Shown piece after piece: positions 6,714-63,736 of a stretch of DNA of 64,000 nucleotides. A model generated the notes under the pieces. It saw only the letters and a list, made by a program, of their open reading frames with translations. It made no database searches and was not told the DNA's origin. The first letter of the stretch is position 1. Each line of letters begins with the position of its first letter. The position numbers and the translations under genes are program-made. Source of the stretch: an uncultured Actinomycetes bacterium. Lineage in GTDB: Bacteria; Actinomycetota; Actinomycetes; S36-B12; UBA10799. Location of the stretch: NCBI GenBank assembly GCA_964474045.1, contig CAYYRC010000006.1, positions 33,262 to 97,261 on the forward strand, read 5' to 3'.

Positions 6714-7718
6714 ATGGGAGTGGGACGCAGCGGTCCGGGCGCCTTCGGCCCGTTCGGACGCGGGCCGAAGGTCGTGGCGATTGGCGGTGGGCACGGGCTG
6801 TCGGCCAGCCTGTCGGCGCTGGGCCGGCTGACGGACAACGTCACAGCCGTGGTGGGGGTGGCCGACGACGGCGGCAGCAGCGGCCGGCTGCGGGGGGAGT
6901 TCGGCATCCCGCCGCCCGGCGATATCCGGATGGCGCTCGCGGCGCTGTGCAGCGACGACCCCGCCGGTCGGACCTGGGCCTCCGTGCTGCAGCACCGCTT
7001 CGGCGGCGAGGGTCCGCTGGCCGGGCACGCGGTGGGCAACTTGCTGCTGGTGGCGCTGTGGGAGCAGGCCGGGGACATCGTCGGGGGCCTGGATTTCGTG
7101 GGCGCGCTGGTCGAGGCGCGCGGGCGCGTCCTGCCGGCCACGACCTCGCCCATGGAGCTCGTGGCCACGGTCCGGCGCGACGGCGTCGAGCAGGTGGTGC
7201 GCGGACAGGCCAGGATCGCCCACAGCGACTCGCGGGTGCGCGACATCTGGCTGGAGCCCGGCGGCGCGCCGGCGTGCCCGGAGTCCCTGGCGGCCATCGC
7301 GGAGGCCGATCTGATCGTGCTGGGCCCCGGCTCGTGGTTCACCTCCGTGCTTCCGCACTTCGTGCTGCCCGGGTTGCGGGCCGCGATCGCGGAGTCCCAG
7401 GCGCAGCGGGTGATGGTTCTCAACCTGCAGGCCGATACCGGCGAGACCAGGGGCTTCCGTGCCGAGACACACCTGCAGGACCTGCGCGAGCGCTACCCCG
7501 AGGTGCGCCTGGACCTGGTCCTGGCCGACCCGCGCGCGGTGGCCGACCACTCCGCGCTGGAGGACGCCGCGTCCAATCTGGGGGCGGCGGTGGCCTACGA
7601 ACCGCTGGCCGCACCCGCGCGCAGCGTGACGCTGCCCGGGCATGCCCACAATCCGGATCTGTTGGCCGCGGCGTTCGCGGCCGTTGTGGAGCGTGGCAGG
7701 ATTCGGCCATGGCGATGA
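6714..7718 (+). CDS. YvcK/CuvA-family (UPF0052, CofD-like) gluconeogenesis/cell-shape factor
   Basis: [30 protein letters not shown] and [11 protein letters not shown]. Conserved position between rapZ and whiA. Confidence 0.85.
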
Positions 7719-8689
7719 CGGCGGCGGTCAAGGACGAGATGAGCCGGGTCGAGGTAACCAAGGTCTGCTGCCGCAGGGCAGAGGCGGTGGCCATGCTGCG
7801 CTACGGCGGGGCGCTGCACCTGGTCGGCAAGAAGATCGTGATCGAGGCGGAGCTGGATACGGCGGCCGCCGCGCGTCGGCTGCGGGCCACGATCAAGGAC
7901 GTCTACGGTCACGAGTCCGAGCTGATCGTGCTGCAGCCCAGCGGCATCCGCAAGGGAACGCGCTATGTCGTCCGGGTGGCCGAGGGCGGTGCTCAGCTGG
8001 CGCGCCAGACGGGGCTGATCGACGGCGCCGGGCGCCCCGTGCGCGGGTTGCCTGCCAGCGTCGTCGGCGGCGGGCTGTGCGATGCCCAGGCCGCCTGGCG
8101 CGGCGCCTTCCTGGCACATGGCTCGCTCACCGAGCCGGGCCGATCCGGCAGTCTGGAGATCACCTGCCCCGGCTCCGAGGCGGCCCTGGCCCTGGTCGGC
8201 GCGGCCCGCAGGATGGGGATGGCGGCCAAGTCCCGCGAGGTGCGAGGCGTGGACCGCGTCGTCATCCGGGACGGCGACACCATCAGCGCGATGCTCACCA
8301 GGCTGGGCGCACACCAGTCGCTGCTCGAGTGGGAGGAGCGGCGCATCCGGCGCGAGGTGCGCGCCACGGCCAACCGGCTGGCCAACTTCGACGACGCCAA
8401 CCAGCGCCGCTCGGCCGATGCCGCGAAGGCGGCCAGCGCCCGCGTGCGCCGGGCGCTGGAGATCCTGGGCGACGACATCCCGCCGCACCTGGCCGAGGCC
8501 GGGCGGCTGCGCATGGAGCACGAGCGCGCCTCGCTGGAGGAGCTCGGGGCGCTGGCCGACCCGCCGCTGACGAAGGACGCGATCGCCGGCCGCATCCGCA
8601 GGTTGCTGGCGATGGCCGACAAGGCGGCCCGGGCCCAGCGCATCGACGATACCGAGGCCGCCCTCAGGGAAGACCTCTACCTCTCCTAG
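7709..8689 (+). CDS. whiA: Sporulation/cell-division transcription regulator WhiA
   Basis: Starts [16 protein letters not shown] at ATG 7709, overlapping the preceding stop by 10 nt. 326 aa. Degenerate LAGLIDADG-like core and a C-terminal HTH region. The upstream part of ORF 6947..8689 is an out-of-frame overlap with yvcK. Confidence 0.9.
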
Positions 8690-8770
8690 CCTCGCGGTCG
8701 CCTCCCGGCGTCACCGTCACCGCCCGTGGAGCGGCGACGCCCGACTGCGTTTCGGTAGGGTAGGGGCTGA

Positions 8771-58729: not shown

Positions 58730-59419
58730 CTACCGGGCCGATGGCCCCGGCGGCGGCAGGTCCACCGGCTGAGCATCGGGGAACCACGACCGCGCGTAGC
58801 GAAGGCACTCGTGCAACAACTCGACCTCGGCTGCGCTGTAGATCGGGTGCAGCTGCGCGAAGTACGCGGGCACGTCCTCGCCGGCGAGCACCGTCACGCC
58901 GGGCGGGCGGCTCTTGATCCTCAGCCGGCCGTCGGGACCGACCAGGATGACGATCACCGGCAGCACCGTGACGTGCAGGCCGGAGGCGAACCGCAGCCGG
59001 TTGGTCGCCGTGTGCGCCTCTTCCTTGGCCTGGTGCGCGTAGTCCTTGGGATATCGACCGACCCAGATCGTGTCGGCTTTGACGTCCACCCGCTGCCCGG
59101 CGTGGTGCTTGGTGTTGATCGTGAAGACCCCCGGCGGACCGACGAGGACATGGTCGATGTCGCCGCCGTACTCGGTCACCTGGACGGAGTTCAGGACGCG
59201 CCAGGCAGTCCGGGTGAGCGGCTCCAGGCGGGCGGCGACGTCCTGCTCGCCAAGGATGCCCTTGGCGTAGGAGTTCGGTTGGGGCGGTTCGGCCGGGTCG
59301 GCAGGGTCGCCCCACTTCGCGAGCTGGCGCAGGCCCTGCCCGGCCTCGTGGGCGGCGAGGTCCTCGTCGGGATCTACCGGCTTGCGGTAGGGCCGCCACG
59401 TCCCCTTGCCTCGTGCCAT
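58730..59419 (-). CDS. NERD-domain protein (stand-alone)
   Basis: GGDIDHVLVGPPGVFTINTKHHAG core. Start taken at MARGKGTW (59419). Confidence 0.75.
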   Translation of the reverse strand: MARGKGTWRPYRKPVDPDEDLAAHEAGQGLRQLAKWGDPADPAEPPQPNSYAKGILGEQDVAARLEPLTRTAWRVLNSVQVTEYGGDIDHVLVGPPGVFTINTKHHAGQRVDVKADTIWVGRYPKDYAHQAKEEAHTATNRLRFASGLHVTVLPVIVILVGPDGRLRIKSRPPGVTVLAGEDVPAYFAQLHPIYSAAEVELLHECLRYARSWFPDAQPVDLPPPGPSAR

Positions 59420-59742
59420 TGGAACCCCTCCCCACGTGCCGGTGCCGCAGCCATCGGACTCGCGTCGGAGCCTGCCTGCGGTGGAACTCGGCTGAGGATC
59501 GTCACTTCGTGAGTCGGCCTGGGGGCGGTTGCGCCAATTGGGTGAGCGACTTCGATCGGACCGGGTCGCGTCCAACATCCACCTCGTCCAGATTCCAGCC
59601 GGCTACCGAGGCAGGCGGCGGCGCGAGGCTTGGCGCGGCACTCGTTGGACGCCCAGCGGCACTTGCCGGACGACCGTCGGAAGCACATCGTCAGGCGCCT
59701 GGGCAGGTGTGGACGACGCTGGGACGGGCACGAAGTTCGACG

Positions 59743-59748
59743 TAGCAT
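59743..59748 (+). promoter_or_regulatory. Possible -10 hexamer TAGCAT, 6 nt upstream of ATG 59755 (leaderless transcript?)
   Basis: TANNNT pattern, with no RBS between it and the ATG. Confidence 0.3.
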
Positions 59749-59754
59749 GACGCC

Positions 59755-60048
59755 ATGACCACCGACTTCGTCGCCTACGACGATCTGCCGCGGGCCGACG
59801 AGGAGTCGCTCCGAGCTCGCGCTTCCGAGTTGATCGCACTTGCCGAGGGCTTGGGTTTGACGAACCTGCGATATGCGTCGAGCAACCGCATCGTCGTGAC
59901 GCTCACCGAGCACGTGGAGACCTTGGGGGAGTATCGCTTCGCCGAGAAGGCGAGCTACCTTCTGGGACTTCAGGTCCGCGTCTACGATGACGCGGTGCTG
60001 AGAAACCCGGGCGTCAGCCCGGACCTGCTGGCGGCAACGCCGCTGTAG
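59755..60048 (+). CDS. MNT-like (minimal nucleotidyltransferase-related) putative antitoxin lacking the GS..DxD catalytic signature
   Basis: 97 aa, 10 nt upstream of a DUF86 gene. The C-terminal LLGLQVRVYDDAVL resembles the MNT C-terminus. No GS..DxD motif was found. Confidence 0.5.
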   Translation: MTTDFVAYDDLPRADEESLRARASELIALAEGLGLTNLRYASSNRIVVTLTEHVETLGEYRFAEKASYLLGLQVRVYDDAVLRNPGVSPDLLAATPL

Positions 60049-60058
60049 GCCTGGGCGG

Positions 60059-60409
60059 ATGGATCGCGAGTACACGCGCCAGGAGTTGCTGGTCGAGGTC
60101 GTCGCCGCAGCCAGCAGGCTGCGCGAGCTCGGCGCCCGCGGGGACCTGCGGCGCTTCACCGATGACGAGGTCTTCCGCTTCGCACTGGCGTACCTGTGGT
60201 TGCGGCTTGCGGAACCCGCGTGTCAACTCGTCACGCGGCGCCTGGTCGGTGAGATGTCGATGGCCGTCTGGTCTGGCCTATGCCCCATCCGAAACGCCCT
60301 CGCGCACGAACGAGACGAGGACATCAACTACCAGCGGCTGTGGGTCAATGTGCCCGCCGCGGTCGAGGCGTCGCTTGGCGAGGCGGATCGGCTGCTGGCT
60401 TCGACCTGA
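60059..60409 (+). CDS. HEPN-domain protein (DUF86/HepT-like) putative toxin
   Basis: Rx4H motif in CPIRNALAHERDEDINYQRLW. 116 aa. Confidence 0.7.
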   Translation: MDREYTRQELLVEVVAAASRLRELGARGDLRRFTDDEVFRFALAYLWLRLAEPACQLVTRRLVGEMSMAVWSGLCPIRNALAHERDEDINYQRLWVNVPAAVEASLGEADRLLAST

Positions 60410-60432
60410 GGGTGTCAGGCGAAGGTCGGCTC

Positions 60433-60462
60433 GGCCAGCGGCGATCTGACTGCCCGCTGGCC
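60433..60462 (+). terminator. Hairpin GGCCAGCGG-N12-CCGCTGGCC, 24 nt after the HEPN gene stop
   Basis: 9-bp perfect inverted repeat read directly. Confidence 0.45.
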
Positions 60463-60600
60463 AAGGAACTTGCAGCCACCCAGCCCAGCCAAGTTGAGCC
60501 GAGTTGCCGACGCTCGCCCGACCTGTGCGACAGGCGATCCTGCCCTTCGCATCGTCGTTCCGGCGCCTGAGGCCGGCGCAACCCCCACTCGGGTCACCCC

Positions 60601-61794
60601 ATGGCGATACTGAATCCCGTGACGCGCCGGCTGATCTTCCTGACGTGCTCAGTGCTGCTGCTGGAGTCGTTCTTCTCGGCTGTGCTCACCCCGATGGTGC
60701 CGGCGTTCCGGCAGGAGCTGGGACTGTCTGAGGGGGCCACCGGAATCCTCGTGGCCGCCTATGCCGCCGGGTCGCTGATCTTCTCGATGCCCGCGGGGTG
60801 GTTCGCGTCGCGCTACAACCCGCGGACGGCGGTCGTCGTGGGGCTGCTTGGCGTCGGGTTGTCCAGCGTCGCCTTCGGCTGGGCCGGGCACGCCACCATG
60901 CTCGAGGCGAGCCGGTTCCTCCTGGGTGCCTTCGGTGCCTTGATGTGGGCCGGCGGTATGAGTTGGACCATCTCGGCGGCCGGGGTGGACGGCCGGGGAC
61001 AGGTCATGGGGACGCTGCTGGCCGCCGCGGTAGCCGGCGAACTGATCGGCTCACCCGTCGGGGCGGTGGCCGACCATCTCGGCACGGAGTATGTGTTCAC
61101 CGGGCTGTTGGTGCTGTCGATCCTGCTGGCCGGTCTGGCCCGGACCGTACCGCCCGTCGCCGAGGAGGCCGGCCAGACCGCGCGCGAGGCGCTGTCGGCC
61201 GTGCGGGAGGCGGGGGTGACGCGGTGGGTCTTCGCCCTCGTGGCCGTTGTGGGGCCGTCAATCGCGCTCGGATCAGTGCTCGTGATCGTGCCGCTGCGGG
61301 TGGAGGCGCTTGGCCTGTCGTCGTGGATTCTGGCCGCCGGTCTACTGGGGATGTCCGTGGTGGAGATGGTCACGGGTCCCCTGGCCGGGCGCTGGAGCGA
61401 TCGCGTGGGGCGCAAGACGCCGTTCCTCATCGGGCTGGCGATCATGGCGCCTTGTGTCGTGGCGTTCGCGGTGATCCCCGCCTTCGCCGGGATCGCCGCG
61501 GTCTTGGCTGTCTACGCGGTGGGGTCGGCGTTCGCGTTCACCACCTCGATGACCTCTCTGGCCGACCTGGCTACTCGCGCCGGACTCAACCAGGGGTACT
61601 CATCAGCCACGTCGTCCATCGGCTGGGCGGGGGGTTTGATCGTTGGCGCCCTCGTCGGCGGCGCCATCGTGGGGCGCGTCGGGTACCTGGCGGGGGGACT
61701 GGCGGTGGCGGGGCTGCTGGGGGCCGTGGGGGTGGTGACCTATCGGGTGGCTGCAGGCGACAGGAACGTGGGGGCGGTGGCGCGGGAGGGGTGA
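60601..61794 (+). CDS. MFS transporter (12-TMS)
   Basis: 397 aa polytopic protein. The GRWSDRVGRK loop motif is typical of MFS proteins. Confidence 0.85.
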   Translation: MAILNPVTRRLIFLTCSVLLLESFFSAVLTPMVPAFRQELGLSEGATGILVAAYAAGSLIFSMPAGWFASRYNPRTAVVVGLLGVGLSSVAFGWAGHATMLEASRFLLGAFGALMWAGGMSWTISAAGVDGRGQVMGTLLAAAVAGELIGSPVGAVADHLGTEYVFTGLLVLSILLAGLARTVPPVAEEAGQTAREALSAVREAGVTRWVFALVAVVGPSIALGSVLVIVPLRVEALGLSSWILAAGLLGMSVVEMVTGPLAGRWSDRVGRKTPFLIGLAIMAPCVVAFAVIPAFAGIAAVLAVYAVGSAFAFTTSMTSLADLATRAGLNQGYSSATSSIGWAGGLIVGALVGGAIVGRVGYLAGGLAVAGLLGAVGVVTYRVAAGDRNVGAVAREG

Positions 61795-62047: not shown

Positions 62048-63736
62048 TTGGCCCGCATGATTCCGCCGGTTGTGGATGGCGATGCCCCGCCTGGTGAGAG
62101 GCGGCTATACGAACTCCTGGCGACAGCTTCCGATACAGACGACTGGATTGCCATTCACGGGCTTCACCTTGCGGACCATCCCAACCAGCAGCGTGGCGAG
62201 ACCGACTTCGTCGTGATCGCCCCAGAGCGCGGGGTGCTGGTGATCGAGGTCAAATCGCATCGGTCGGTACGACGTGACAAACGAGGAATGTGGTTGCTCG
62301 GATCCCAGGCACCCACTGATCGCAGCCCGTTTGACCAGGCTGACGACGAGATGTTCGCGATCAAGACGTACCTTGCACAGAGGATGGGGCTCAGTACGAC
62401 CCACATCGAATCCTGCGTTTGGTTCACCCACGCGCCAGCCAGGCGTGAGTTCGTCGACGCGATCGAGTGGAGCCCGTGGCGCCTGCTCGATTCGGGGGAT
62501 CTGGTGGACGTGCCGGGGAGGATCGCGCACGTGCTTGCCGAGGGGCGTGAGCATCGGGCCAAGGCCGGACATTCCTGGCCTGCCGTGGTCGGCCCGGACA
62601 GGGCCACTGCGGAGAAGATCGTCTCGGTGCTGAAGCCTGCCATGCATGCTCAGCCCAGGCCCGCGGACCTCCGGCGGGAACGGGCCAACGAGCTCGCCCG
62701 ACTGCTTGAGGAGCAGGCGGAGGTCCTCGATGGTCTGTTGGAGAACGACCAGGTCCTGGTCACGGGTCCGGCCGGCTGTGGGAAGACCTTCCTGGCACTG
62801 GCCGCAGCGCGAAGGGAAGCTGAGAACGGCAAGCGTGGTCTGCTGGTCTGCTACAACCATGCGATTTGTGACTTCCTCGAGGAACAGGCTGATGGTATCT
62901 CCGGCCTCAGGGTGGCGACCCTCCATGAACTGATGCGCGAAGTTGCGGATGTCCCAGCGGGTGAGATCACGGATCGCGACTTCTGGGAGCAGGAGTTGCC
63001 CGCAGCGGCGTTGGAGGCGCTGCTGTATTCGGACGACGAACCGGTGGACTACCTGATAGTCGACGAGGCACAGGACATTTGCCGACCGAACTATCTCGAT
63101 GTACTCGACCTGGCGGTCAAGGGGGGACTTGCTCAGGGACGCTGCATGTTTTTTGGGGACCTCGATGACCAGGCTGTGTACATCGACTCGCCAAGGACAC
63201 ATCTGGAAGACGCCGCGGGTCGCGTTGCGAAGTACAAGCTGAAAGTCAACTGCCGGAACAATCCCGGTATCGCCCGCGCCGCTTCGGAATTCGGTGATGC
63301 CGTCAACCACTACTCGCGGTGTAGCCGCAGCGAAGGCGGCAGCACCCCGGCGGTCTTCGAGTACGCCACCATGCCGGAGCAACAGGAACTGCTCCTGAAC
63401 TCCGTCCAGGGTCTGCGCGAGGAGGGCTTTGACCTGCACGAGATTGTCGTTCTCAGCCGCTACCGCGAGCGCGCGGCCGCCGCGCAGGCGACGGATCCCT
63501 GGCTGAGGCAAGTATTGGTGGATTTCAGGCGTGGTGGCCAGATTCCCAAGGGACGCATCCGCTACTCGACGATACATTCATTCAAGGGTCTGGAAGCGCC
63601 CGCGATCATCCTGACGGACGTGACGGCGTCCGGGCGTGGTCCCTACTTCGATCTGCTGAACGTGGGCATCACCAGGGCTCGAGACCGCCTGGTGATTTTC
63701 GGGACGGCCGACGGCCTGCGGCAGCACCGAGGGTGA
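62048..63736 (+). CDS. NERD nuclease-like domain fused to SF1 (UvrD/PcrA-like) helicase/ATPase
   Basis: GETDFVVIAPERGVLVIEVKSH (D..ExK). Walker A TGPAGCGKT. YLIVDEAQDI. C-terminal STIHSFKGLEAPAIIL and NVGITRARDRLVIF. TTG start lies 9 nt after GGAGAGG. Confidence 0.8.
   Translation: MARMIPPVVDGDAPPGERRLYELLATASDTDDWIAIHGLHLADHPNQQRGETDFVVIAPERGVLVIEVKSHRSVRRDKRGMWLLGSQAPTDRSPFDQADDEMFAIKTYLAQRMGLSTTHIESCVWFTHAPARREFVDAIEWSPWRLLDSGDLVDVPGRIAHVLAEGREHRAKAGHSWPAVVGPDRATAEKIVSVLKPAMHAQPRPADLRRERANELARLLEEQAEVLDGLLENDQVLVTGPAGCGKTFLALAAARREAENGKRGLLVCYNHAICDFLEEQADGISGLRVATLHELMREVADVPAGEITDRDFWEQELPAAALEALLYSDDEPVDYLIVDEAQDICRPNYLDVLDLAVKGGLAQGRCMFFGDLDDQAVYIDSPRTHLEDAAGRVAKYKLKVNCRNNPGIARAASEFGDAVNHYSRCSRSEGGSTPAVFEYATMPEQQELLLNSVQGLREEGFDLHEIVVLSRYRERAAAAQATDPWLRQVLVDFRRGGQIPKGRIRYSTIHSFKGLEAPAIILTDVTASGRGPYFDLLNVGITRARDRLVIFGTADGLRQHRG

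What the first reader, a model, noticed from the sequence alone, without database searches (positions are those of the whole stretch)
59755..60409. HEPN/MNT-like pair in which both the AMPylation enzyme motif and its target Tyr appear to be missing
In characterised HepT/MntA (type VII) modules, the MNT antitoxin (GS..DxD nucleotidyltransferase motif) poly-AMPylates a Tyr in the HepT Rx4HxY motif. Here the DUF86 protein has R-NALA-H-E-R, so the Tyr position is Arg. The 97-aa upstream partner aligns by eye to MNT proteins at both ends but lacks about 10 residues where GS..DxD should be. Loss on both sides suggests a switch to purely stoichiometric (type II-like) neutralisation, or a new mode. 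The pair may be transcribed leaderless from a TAGCAT box 6 nt upstream of the ATG.
Basis: partly seen in the sequence, partly recalled or inferred. Interest (0 to 1): 0.6.

Follow-up and report, generated by a model that had tools for sequence, protein, structure and literature searches.

The report
Enzyme-dead MNT paired with tyrosine-less HEPN
This two-gene toxin-antitoxin-like module descends from the HepT/MntA family, but the antidote has lost its enzyme site and the RNase has lost the tyrosine that enzyme modifies, so the RNase is most likely held in check by plain binding.

Summary
Window 59755-60048 encodes a 97-aa protein with a minimal-nucleotidyltransferase (MNT) fold. Against eight bona fide actinobacterial MNTs it shows a 10-residue deletion of the G-loop, and it has no DxD and no third Asp. 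Window 60059-60409 encodes a 116-aa HepT-like HEPN protein that keeps the RNase residues R78-x4-H83 and E52. At the AMP-acceptor position it has Arg85 instead of Tyr.

Both losses are fixed across a small clade found mostly in uncultured Actinomycetes. Arg sits at the Tyr site in 25 of 27 close homologues and in all six distant pairs examined. All 25 canonical HepT loci sampled from the same class keep the Tyr.

Both genes are under purifying selection. They always occur together, move between genomic contexts, and form arrays with extra partner copies and decayed fragments.

A TANNNT box lies 6-7 nt before the start codon in most copies, which supports leaderless transcription. The genome has no stand-alone MNT.

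The most likely mechanism is AMPylation-independent, stoichiometric inhibition by a pseudo-enzyme antitoxin. This is inferred, not shown. I rate it a new variant of a known kind, of moderate interest. Another reader of this scan noted the same family on another genome.

The parts
59708..59714 (+). Conserved upstream element TGTGGAC. The family consensus is CTGTGGAYA, whose reverse complement xTxTCCACA resembles a DnaA box. It lies 47 nt before the ATG and may be an operator or regulator site.
   Evidence: TGTGGA is invariant in all 9 aligned tier-1 upstream regions, although the coding dS exceeds 1. It is also present upstream of the divergent copy L060. The window's own copy is the weakest match: it was not among the hits at 1 mismatch or fewer.
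59743..59748 (+). -10-like box TAGCAT (TANNNT). It lies 6 nt upstream of the ATG, so the A of the start codon would be the transcription start (leaderless mRNA).
   Evidence: Read from the sequence. The spacing is gap-free, the final T is invariant and TANNNT is exact in 6 of 9 tier-1 copies. TANNNT lies 6-7 nt before the start codon in 7 of 9 further family loci whose upstream DNA is otherwise unalignable. There is no Shine-Dalgarno sequence. The sigma-70 consensus scan found nothing. No expression data were available.
59755..60048 (+). Partner gene: a 97-aa MNT-derived pseudo-nucleotidyltransferase and putative antitoxin. Residues 1-16 form a conserved acidic tail (Y-D-D-L-P-x-A-D-E). Beta1 (35-41) and beta2 (45-50) are joined by a 3-residue turn where the G-loop should be. 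The alpha2 helix spans 58-70. The C-terminal motif GVSPDLLAATPL is conserved.
   Evidence: AlphaFold2 gave pLDDT 78.7 for the best model, but the other four models were poor. The top Foldseek hit is 1WOT, a minimal nucleotidyltransferase (probability 1.00, TM 0.65), and MntA chains follow. hhalign to canonical MNTs gave 95.6%. The family HMM finds canonical MNTs next to canonical HepT genes at 1e-5 to 1e-7. There is no Pfam, NCBIfam or PADLOC hit. dN/dS is 0.07-0.22.
59878..59889 (+). Codons S42-S43-N44-R45: the site of the roughly 10-residue G-loop deletion. The A41-S42 pair stands for the GS motif. There is no DxD, and the invariant R45 sits where the second Asp should be.
   Evidence: hhalign gap placement. 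A direct comparison with canonical sequences shows high-confidence alignment downstream of the gap. R45 is invariant in the 19 close homologues.
60059..60409 (+). HEPN gene: a 116-aa divergent HepT-like RNase and putative toxin. It probably is translationally coupled to the partner gene through a 10-nt spacer.
   Evidence: AlphaFold2 gave pLDDT 91.9. The top Foldseek hits are HEPN toxins of HEPN/MNT systems: 7AE6, 7AE8, 7BXO and 6M6W (probability 0.99-1.00, TM up to 0.71). hhalign to canonical HepT gave 95.2%. 24 of 27 homologues hit PF01934 weakly. dN/dS is 0.16-0.36.
60290..60313 (+). Codons R78-N-A-L-A-H83-E-R85. The Rx4H RNase motif is intact, and the AMPylation-acceptor Tyr is replaced by Arg85.
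   Evidence: Read from the sequence. Column counts among 27 homologues are R78 26, H83 26, E52 27, and position 85 R 25, G 1, A 1, Y 0.
60430..60465 (+). Inverted repeat with 12-nt arms, 20 nt after the HEPN stop codon. It may be a terminator hairpin, but the evidence is weak.
   Evidence: Found as an inverted repeat. It folds at -29.1 kcal/mol, but the z-score is only -1.0 against shuffled sequences. There is no T-run.

Best explanation
This is a two-gene, toxin-antitoxin-like module that descends from the HepT/MntA (HEPN/MNT, type VII) family.

The downstream gene encodes a HepT-like HEPN RNase that still has its catalytic residues (R78-x4-H83 and E52). The tyrosine that MntA enzymes AMPylate is replaced by a conserved arginine.

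The upstream gene encodes an MNT-fold protein that has lost the nucleotide-binding G-loop and all three metal-binding aspartates. It is therefore a pseudo-enzyme and cannot AMPylate anything.

The RNase is most likely silenced by stable, stoichiometric binding of the pseudo-MNT. The binding would use the retained alpha2 helix and C-terminal interface, and probably also a family-specific, acidic, disordered N-terminal tail.

The pair is probably transcribed as a leaderless mRNA from a conserved TANNNT box, with the HEPN gene translationally coupled.

Shown here: homology, fold, loss of both motifs, conservation, linkage, mobility and the promoter footprint. Inferred: RNase toxicity, neutralisation by binding, the role of the tail, and leaderless transcription.
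For: Fold and homology
- HEPN: Foldseek puts HEPN toxins on top, hhalign gives 95.2%, and homologues give weak PF01934 hits.
- Partner: the top Foldseek hit is 1WOT, followed by MntA chains. hhalign gives 95.6% with a 10-residue gap at the G-loop. The family HMM retrieves canonical MNTs that sit next to canonical HepT genes.

Loss of both motifs
- The DxD position falls on S43-N44-R45 and the third Asp on R75.
- The Tyr position falls on R85.
- Arg is also present at that site in six distant (tier-2) pairs. All 25 canonical HepT loci sampled from the same class keep the Tyr.

Signs of function
- dN/dS is below 0.4 for both genes.
- R78, H83 and E52 are conserved.

Linkage and mobility
- In all 8 sampled genomes with a clear hit to this HEPN clade, a partner-family gene sits next to it.
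- A same-genus genome has a different genomic context, a partner-HEPN-partner arrangement and decayed copies.

No enzyme available in trans
- The genome has no PF01934 or PF18765 hit, and PF01909 matches only inside an 884-aa frame.

Published structures
- The G-loop carrying GSX10DXD lies between the antiparallel strands beta1 and beta2, and the MNT alpha2 helix is the common HEPN interface (PMC11586414).
- D39, D41 and D71 bind the Mg2+ ions, and Y104 is the acceptor (PMC7641770).

Other
- The AlphaFold2 model shows a tight beta1-beta2 hairpin and a low-confidence N-terminal tail (residues 1-12) that is conserved in sequence.
- TANNNT lies 6-7 nt before the start codon in most copies.
Against:
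- In Shewanella, catalytically dead MntA still binds HepT but neutralises it poorly (PMC7641770). Binding through the ancestral interface alone may therefore not be enough, so this family would need an added inhibitory element.
- The partner evolves more slowly than the HEPN protein. This is unlike many type II antitoxins.
- No DNA-binding domain was detected in the partner that could provide the autoregulation typical of type II systems.
- Only one of the five AlphaFold2 models of the partner was confident.
- No complex could be modelled here.
Confidence: 0.6

Rival explanations
1. The pair is not a toxin-antitoxin module. It is a domesticated heteromeric RNase, in which the pseudo-MNT is a permanent regulatory or substrate-targeting subunit of a HEPN RNase with a cellular RNA-processing or defence-effector role.
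For: The partner is more strongly conserved than the HEPN protein (dN/dS 0.07-0.22 against 0.16-0.36). HEPN/MNT complexes have been exapted as regulatory enzymes elsewhere (PMC3710099). The window's neighbours are defence-like: a NERD gene and a NERD-helicase gene.
Against: The distribution is patchy: 13 of 401 genomes sampled from the class and 1 of 400 in a second, phylum-wide sample. Contexts vary, one MAG carries multiple copies, and there are orphan partner copies and decayed HEPN fragments. All of these are typical of selfish or addiction-type modules and not of housekeeping genes.
Confidence: 0.15
2. A third component takes part. The pseudo-MNT would be an adaptor or sensor, and another protein would do the neutralising or activating. 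That protein could be a second partner copy as in the partner-HEPN-partner arrays, a protease, or a phage trigger.
For: A same-genus genome has a partner-HEPN-partner arrangement, and another MAG has three partner copies for one intact HEPN gene.
Against: The window's genome has exactly one partner gene and one HEPN gene. The minimal conserved unit everywhere is the pair.
Confidence: 0.1
3. Covalent modification is retained by non-canonical means. The partner would use a rebuilt active site, for example the conserved acidic residue at position 52 (D/E) and D79, and would modify another residue on the HEPN protein, for example Y5 or T6.
For: An A-S pair remains at the GS position. T51 and D79 are invariant and position 52 is always acidic in the close family. 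Y5 is present in 23 of 27 HEPN homologues and T6 in 26 of 27. Tier-2 partners carry a DRD triplet exactly 10 residues after the A-S pair.
Against: The whole triphosphate-binding G-loop is deleted. The three Asp positions are occupied by Ser/Asn, Arg and Arg. The tier-2 DRD aligns with high confidence to the loop after beta2 and not to the catalytic DxD, and it is not kept in the window's subfamily, which reads E-H-V-E there. Tier-2 HEPN proteins have no Tyr at the N-terminus.
Confidence: 0.05
4. The pair is a decaying remnant of a HepT/MntA module, and neither protein is still functional.
For: Both hallmark motifs are lost. Fragments and truncated copies exist in related genomes.
Against: The reading frames are intact. 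dN/dS is well below 1 over dS greater than 1. The RNase residues and many partner residues are invariant. The same two losses are shared by subfamilies whose partner proteins are only about 40% identical. The promoter is conserved.
Confidence: 0.05

Closest known systems
HepT/MntA (class I HEPN/MNT) type VII toxin-antitoxin systems: Shewanella oneidensis SO_3166/SO_3165 (PDB 5YEP, 6M6V, 7BXO), Aphanizomenon flos-aquae HEPN/MNT (7AE2, 7AE6-9), Legionella pneumophila HEPN/MNT (8XEO)
   Same: The gene order is MNT-like first and HEPN second, both genes are small and the spacer is short. The toxin has the HepT-like HEPN fold with Rx4H and the conserved Glu of alpha2. The partner has the MNT (pol-beta-like) fold of the short type that lacks the alpha4 helix, like 1WOT and the Legionella MNT. 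The alpha2 helix and the C-terminal sequence (LG..V......L.NP.V...L..A.PL) are retained.
   Different: There is no G-loop and no GSX10DXD or third Asp in the partner. There is no Tyr in Rx4HxY, where a conserved Arg sits instead. Neutralisation by oligo-AMPylation, which defines type VII, is therefore not possible. The partner also carries a family-specific acidic N-terminal tail. Neither protein is recognised by the Pfam, NCBIfam or PADLOC models.
Type II toxin-antitoxin systems with HEPN RNase toxins (RnlA/RnlB, LsoA/LsoB)
   Same: This is the proposed mode of action: a HEPN RNase inhibited by direct binding of a small protein antitoxin.
   Different: The antitoxins RnlB and LsoB are unrelated to MNT, and the RnlA/LsoA toxins are large multi-domain HEPN proteins. 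No homology to them was found or claimed here.
Class II HEPN/MNT modules (PF05168 HEPN plus PF01909 MNT; for example HI0073/HI0074, TTHA), and the degenerate MNT-HEPN pairs noted elsewhere in this scan
   Same: They are two-gene MNT-HEPN cassettes in which one or both catalytic motifs can be missing.
   Different: In class II it is the HEPN protein that lacks Rx4H, while the MNT is active (PMC11586414). Here the HEPN protein keeps Rx4H and the MNT is dead. There is no PF05168 hit.

Membership tests
HepT/MntA type VII TA (class I HEPN/MNT) | The toxin is a HepT-like (DUF86, PF01934) HEPN-fold protein. | tested here: met
   The window protein itself has no PF01934 hit at E<=10. However, 24 of 27 close homologues hit PF01934 (best E 1.2e-4). 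hhalign to 12 canonical HepT proteins gives 95.2%, E 2.6e-8. The top Foldseek hits are HEPN toxins 7AE6, 7AE8, 7BXO and 6M6W.
HepT/MntA type VII TA (class I HEPN/MNT) | The toxin carries the Rx4H RNase motif. | tested here: met
   The motif is R78-NALA-H83. R78 and H83 are each present in 26 of 27 homologues, and E52 in 27 of 27.
HepT/MntA type VII TA (class I HEPN/MNT) | An acceptor Tyr lies two residues after the His (Rx4HxY). | tested here: not met
   The residue is Arg85. Among 27 homologues the column reads R 25, G 1, A 1 and Y 0. The distant subfamilies also have Arg, and one copy has Leu. No other Tyr is conserved across the clade.
HepT/MntA type VII TA (class I HEPN/MNT) | The antitoxin has the MNT (pol-beta-like minimal nucleotidyltransferase) fold and is encoded directly upstream. 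| tested here: met
   The top Foldseek hit is 1WOT (TM 0.65, probability 1.00), followed by MntA chains. hhalign gives 95.6%. The gene order and the 10-nt spacer are seen. Caveats: no PF01909 or PF18765 hit for any of 36 family members, and the AlphaFold2 model has only moderate confidence.
HepT/MntA type VII TA (class I HEPN/MNT) | The antitoxin carries GSX10DXD plus a third Asp (D39, D41 and D71 in Shewanella MntA). | tested here: not met
   There is a 10-residue gap at the G-loop. The DxD position falls on S43-N44-R45 and the third Asp on R75. R45 and R75 are invariant in the close family.
HepT/MntA type VII TA (class I HEPN/MNT) | The toxin is neutralised by oligo-AMPylation. | not testable with these tools
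   This needs mass spectrometry or biochemistry. The sequence makes it very unlikely, because both the enzyme site and the acceptor residue are absent.
Type II toxin-antitoxin systems | The protein antitoxin neutralises the toxin by direct, stoichiometric binding. | not testable with these tools
   The evidence is only indirect. The alpha2 interface helix is retained, and the N-terminal tail is conserved, acidic and of low model confidence. No complex prediction was available.
Type II toxin-antitoxin systems | The antitoxin carries a DNA-binding domain and autoregulates the operon. | tested here: inconclusive
   No DNA-binding domain was detected in the partner. Canonical actinobacterial MNTs often carry an N-terminal HTH domain that this family lacks. 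A conserved CTGTGGAYA element upstream points to some regulator.
Type II toxin-antitoxin systems | The module is a small, mobile two-gene cassette with a patchy distribution, several copies and decayed copies. | tested here: met
   The partner family occurs in 13 of 401 sampled class genomes, spread over many families. One MAG has four loci. There are arrays and fragments. A same-genus genome has different neighbours.
Class II HEPN/MNT (PF05168 + PF01909) | The HEPN protein belongs to the PF05168 type and lacks Rx4H, and it is paired with an active MNT. | tested here: not met
   There is no PF05168 hit. Rx4H is present, and the MNT active site is absent.

The most novel reading that the evidence does not exclude
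This clade would be a natural example of a type VII toxin-antitoxin system that turned into a type II-like one. The MNT enzyme became a pseudo-enzyme, and its newly acquired acidic, disordered N-terminal tail (Y-D-D-L-P-x-A-D-E) occupies the positively charged RNase cleft of HepT in place of the oligo-AMP chain. The Arg that replaced the acceptor Tyr helps to clamp the tail. Expression may in addition be tied to DnaA through the conserved DnaA-box-like element in the promoter.
Probability: 0.25. Interest if true: 0.7.

Novelty: new variant of a known kind. Interest (0 to 1): 0.55.

Why it matters

A conserved clade that has lost both the enzyme site and the acceptor residue, while remaining under selection, shows that the family can change its mode of neutralisation. 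It offers a natural system for three questions:
- How does an enzymatic antitoxin become a binding antitoxin?
- What must be added to the ancestral, weak MNT-HEPN interface to make binding sufficient?
- Does losing ATP-dependent control change what the module senses?

There is also a practical point. Neither protein is recognised by the Pfam, NCBIfam or PADLOC models, so such modules are currently annotated as hypothetical proteins and are missed in TA and defence censuses.

Tried and rejected
- Direct family scans. Pfam, NCBIfam and PADLOC gave no meaningful hit for either window protein.
- Sequence-profile searches of the PDB. Both families returned nothing relevant. Only the fold search and profile-profile comparison linked them to HepT and MNT.
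- The search for related loci. It could not use the wide alignment, so I used the close alignment instead.
- Alternative ungapped alignment. I considered aligning the tier-2 motif FAS-x10-DRD to GS-x10-DxD, which would make distant relatives active enzymes. I rejected it for three reasons. The segment after the gap aligns with high confidence and puts DRD in the loop after beta2. That alignment would delete the central beta2 strand, whereas the model shows a beta1-beta2 hairpin. The window's subfamily does not keep the triplet.
- Alternative acceptor Tyr. Y5, Y45 and Y91 are not conserved across the clade.
- Enzyme in trans. The genome has no stand-alone MNT.
- Promoter and terminator scans. 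The sigma-70 consensus scan and the intrinsic-terminator scan found nothing. The hairpin after the HEPN gene is not better than shuffled sequences.
- Charge and pI comparison. It did not discriminate between this family and canonical pairs.
- Long 'homologues'. P0080 and P0100 hit the partner profile through multiple short stretches. P0100, which I inspected, is an unrelated repeat protein. P0080 shows the same multi-stretch pattern and was set aside without inspection.
- RNA-seq check of the leaderless start.
- Literature. Searches found no description of a Tyr-less HepT paired with a dead MNT.

Full report
**The genes.** Two same-strand ORFs lie at 59755-60048 (97 aa) and 60059-60409 (116 aa), separated by 10 nt. 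They sit between a divergently oriented NERD-domain gene (58730-59578, minus strand) and an MFS transporter gene (60601-61794). A NERD-UvrD-type helicase gene follows at 62048-63736. The window comes from a 2.85-Mb assembly in 52 contigs, 96% complete. Its closest relatives are MAGs of uncultured Actinomycetes.

**The HEPN protein.**
- The motif reads R78-N-A-L-A-H83-E-R85.
- Pfam does not recognise the window protein as HepT-like, even at E<=10. But 24 of 27 close homologues give weak PF01934 hits (best E 1.2e-4), and JGI labels several of them as HEPN-domain proteins.
- The AlphaFold2 model is confident (pLDDT 91.9). Its best PDB matches are the HEPN toxins of the characterised HEPN/MNT systems: 7AE6, 7AE8, 7BXO and 6M6W (probability 0.99-1.00, TM up to 0.71).
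- Profile-profile alignment against 12 canonical actinobacterial HepT proteins gives 95.2% probability (E 2.6e-8). It aligns R78 and H83 with Rx4H, and R85 with the Tyr of Rx4HxY.
- Among 27 homologues the column counts are R78 26, H83 26, E52 27 (the Glu of the 'GEA' helix), and position 85 R 25, G 1, A 1, Y 0. No other Tyr is conserved across the clade.

**The partner.**
- It has no hit in Pfam, NCBIfam or PADLOC. Nor does any of 36 wider family members in Pfam.
- An exhaustive profile search of 1.84 billion representative proteins found only 58 relatives.
- The AlphaFold2 model is of moderate quality: pLDDT 78.7, with only one of five models confident. Its best PDB match is 1WOT, a minimal nucleotidyltransferase (TM 0.65, probability 1.00), followed by Shewanella MntA chains.
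- I took eight MNT proteins encoded next to canonical HepT genes in genomes of the same class. All eight score above the PF01909/PF18765 cut-offs.
- hhalign of the partner family against these eight gives 95.6% probability (E 1.1e-8). The alignment has a single 10-residue gap directly after the FGS position. The DxD falls on S43-N44-R45, and the third catalytic Asp (VDLV) falls on R75.
- Independently, the family HMM finds canonical MNT genes that sit next to canonical HepT genes, at E of 1e-5 to 1e-7.
- The Legionella structure paper states that GSX10DXD lies in a long G-loop between the antiparallel strands beta1 and beta2 (PMC11586414). The model here has beta1 (35-41) joined to beta2 (45-50) by a 3-residue turn. 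That is what a G-loop deletion would give.
- In Shewanella MntA, D39, D41 and D71 hold the two Mg2+ ions and G27/S28 bind the phosphates (PMC7641770). None of these groups is left here except an Ala-Ser pair.
- An alternative ungapped alignment for distant relatives (FAS-x10-DRD) was considered and rejected. See Tried and rejected.

**The losses are old, linked and selected.** The family has several layers.
- The window's subfamily (tier 1) has partner LRYASSNRIVV and HEPN RNxLAH[ED]R.
- A distant subfamily (tier 2) has partner LRFASPGRLVGHVAEDRD and HEPN RN.LAH[VRT]R, again with Arg at the Tyr site.
- One divergent copy has Leu at that site.
- A still more distant layer has a HEPN-like neighbour that appears to have lost the His as well, but the evidence is weak.

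In contrast, all 25 canonical PF01934 loci sampled from the same class keep the Tyr, even the four in which the Arg or His of Rx4H is replaced.

In 401 genomes of the class, clear hits to this HEPN clade occurred in 8 genomes, and in all 8 a partner-family gene sits next to the HEPN gene. No transitional pair was seen.

Pairwise dN/dS is 0.07-0.22 for the partner and 0.16-0.36 for the HEPN protein. dS is often saturated, so these values are rough.

**Behaviour as a mobile module.**
- The partner family (E<1e-9) was found in 13 of 401 sampled class genomes, spread over many families, and in 1 of 400 genomes of a second, phylum-wide sample.
- One MAG has four loci.
- A same-genus genome carries a partner-HEPN-partner arrangement plus truncated copies, among unrelated neighbours that include a PLD-helicase with DUF3427.
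- Another MAG contig has three partner genes, one intact HEPN gene and a HEPN remnant.
- The window's genome has a single pair. It has no stand-alone MNT that could act in trans.

**Expression signals.**
- TAGCAT (59743-59748) lies 6 nt before the ATG, and there is no Shine-Dalgarno sequence.
- In nine tier-1 copies the spacing is gap-free, the last T is invariant and TANNNT is exact in six.
- In further loci whose upstream DNA cannot otherwise be aligned, TANNNT lies 6-7 nt before the start codon in seven of nine.
- With about 16% A and 16% T, such a box at a fixed place is expected in under 1% of loci. That figure is my own estimate.
- This supports the leaderless reading by phylogenetic footprint only.
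- A second conserved element, CTGTGGAYA, lies 47-50 nt before the ATG in all tier-1 copies and in the divergent copy L060. Its reverse complement resembles a DnaA box. Another reader of this scan made the same observation on another genome.

**Mechanism.** The RNase residues are intact and conserved, so the HEPN protein is probably an active RNase. Covalent control is excluded on both sides, so control must come through protein-protein contact. Three features fit this:
- The alpha2 helix, which is the common HEPN-binding element of all three solved MNTs (PMC11586414), is retained and conserved (residues 58-70).
- The C-terminal sequence is shared with canonical short MNTs.
- The first 16 residues form a conserved acidic motif that has no counterpart in the canonical MNT alignment, and residues 1-12 have very low model confidence. 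This is the usual signature of an antitoxin segment that folds on its toxin.

The main caution is that dead MntA mutants in Shewanella still bind HepT but neutralise it poorly (PMC7641770). The ancestral interface alone is probably not sufficient, and the N-terminal tail is my candidate for the added inhibitor. All of this is inference.

**Comparison and novelty.** The module is a descendant of class I HEPN/MNT (HepT/MntA), but it fails the two features that define type VII neutralisation. It is not class II HEPN/MNT, in which the HEPN protein lacks Rx4H and the MNT is active. Literature searches and readings of the main papers found no description of a Tyr-less HepT with a dead MNT. Other degenerate MNT-HEPN pairs from different families have been noted by this scan. 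I rate it a new variant of a known kind, of moderate interest.

Noticed in passing
window 59708-59714; L002, L003, L004, L005, L006 upstream regions; L060: A conserved CTGTGGAYA element lies 47-50 nt upstream of the partner ATG in every tier-1 copy and in a divergent paralogue. Its reverse complement, xTxTCCACA, resembles a DnaA box. In some copies it forms a GGATATCC palindrome. It may be an operator or a DnaA site.
   Followed up: partly
L061 (same-genus genome) 7695-8703; L005 223-1804; L002 4238-5911: Relatives carry partner-HEPN-partner arrangements, orphan partner copies and truncated HEPN and partner fragments in tandem. This suggests repeated duplication and decay, and possibly selection for spare antitoxin copies.
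   Followed up: partly
L041 1471-2126; L044 1076-1701 (minus strand): A more distant layer of the partner family (LRQAGHGAVVADVAPGRTYLD) is followed by a HEPN-like ORF whose motif reads RMRDKLAYQS. The His of Rx4H appears to be replaced by Tyr. The alignment is weak (hhalign probability 8%), so this needs checking.
   Followed up: partly
L019, L021, L020, L009 (canonical PF01934 loci of the same class): Some canonical HepT proteins have lost the Arg or His of the RNase motif (RNNVVQRY, RNVVVQEY, RNVLVREY, HNVLVHEY) but keep the Tyr. In canonical pairs the AMP-acceptor residue therefore looks more strictly conserved than the RNase motif.
   Followed up: no
L022, L023, L024, L030, L031, L032: Many canonical actinobacterial MNT antitoxins carry an N-terminal helix-turn-helix domain fused to the MNT domain. 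The dead-MNT family lacks it.
   Followed up: no
window 58730-59578 (minus strand) and 62048-63736 (plus strand): Two NERD-domain genes flank the pair. One stands alone and one is fused to a UvrD-like helicase. An MFS transporter gene lies between the pair and the helicase gene. The neighbourhood looks like a defence island, as other notes of this scan also say.
   Followed up: no
L033 upstream of the partner gene: A direct repeat GTGCAACAT(ac)GTGCAACAT lies about 40 nt upstream of the tier-2 partner start codon. It may be an operator that differs from the tier-1 CTGTGGAYA element.
   Followed up: no
protein P0032 (179 aa, metagenome): This is a chimeric ORF. A canonical HepT with RNRIAHGY is joined to a fragment of this family's HEPN protein (RRFTDD...LWLRLAEPACQL). 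It is either an assembly chimera or a recombination product.
   Followed up: no
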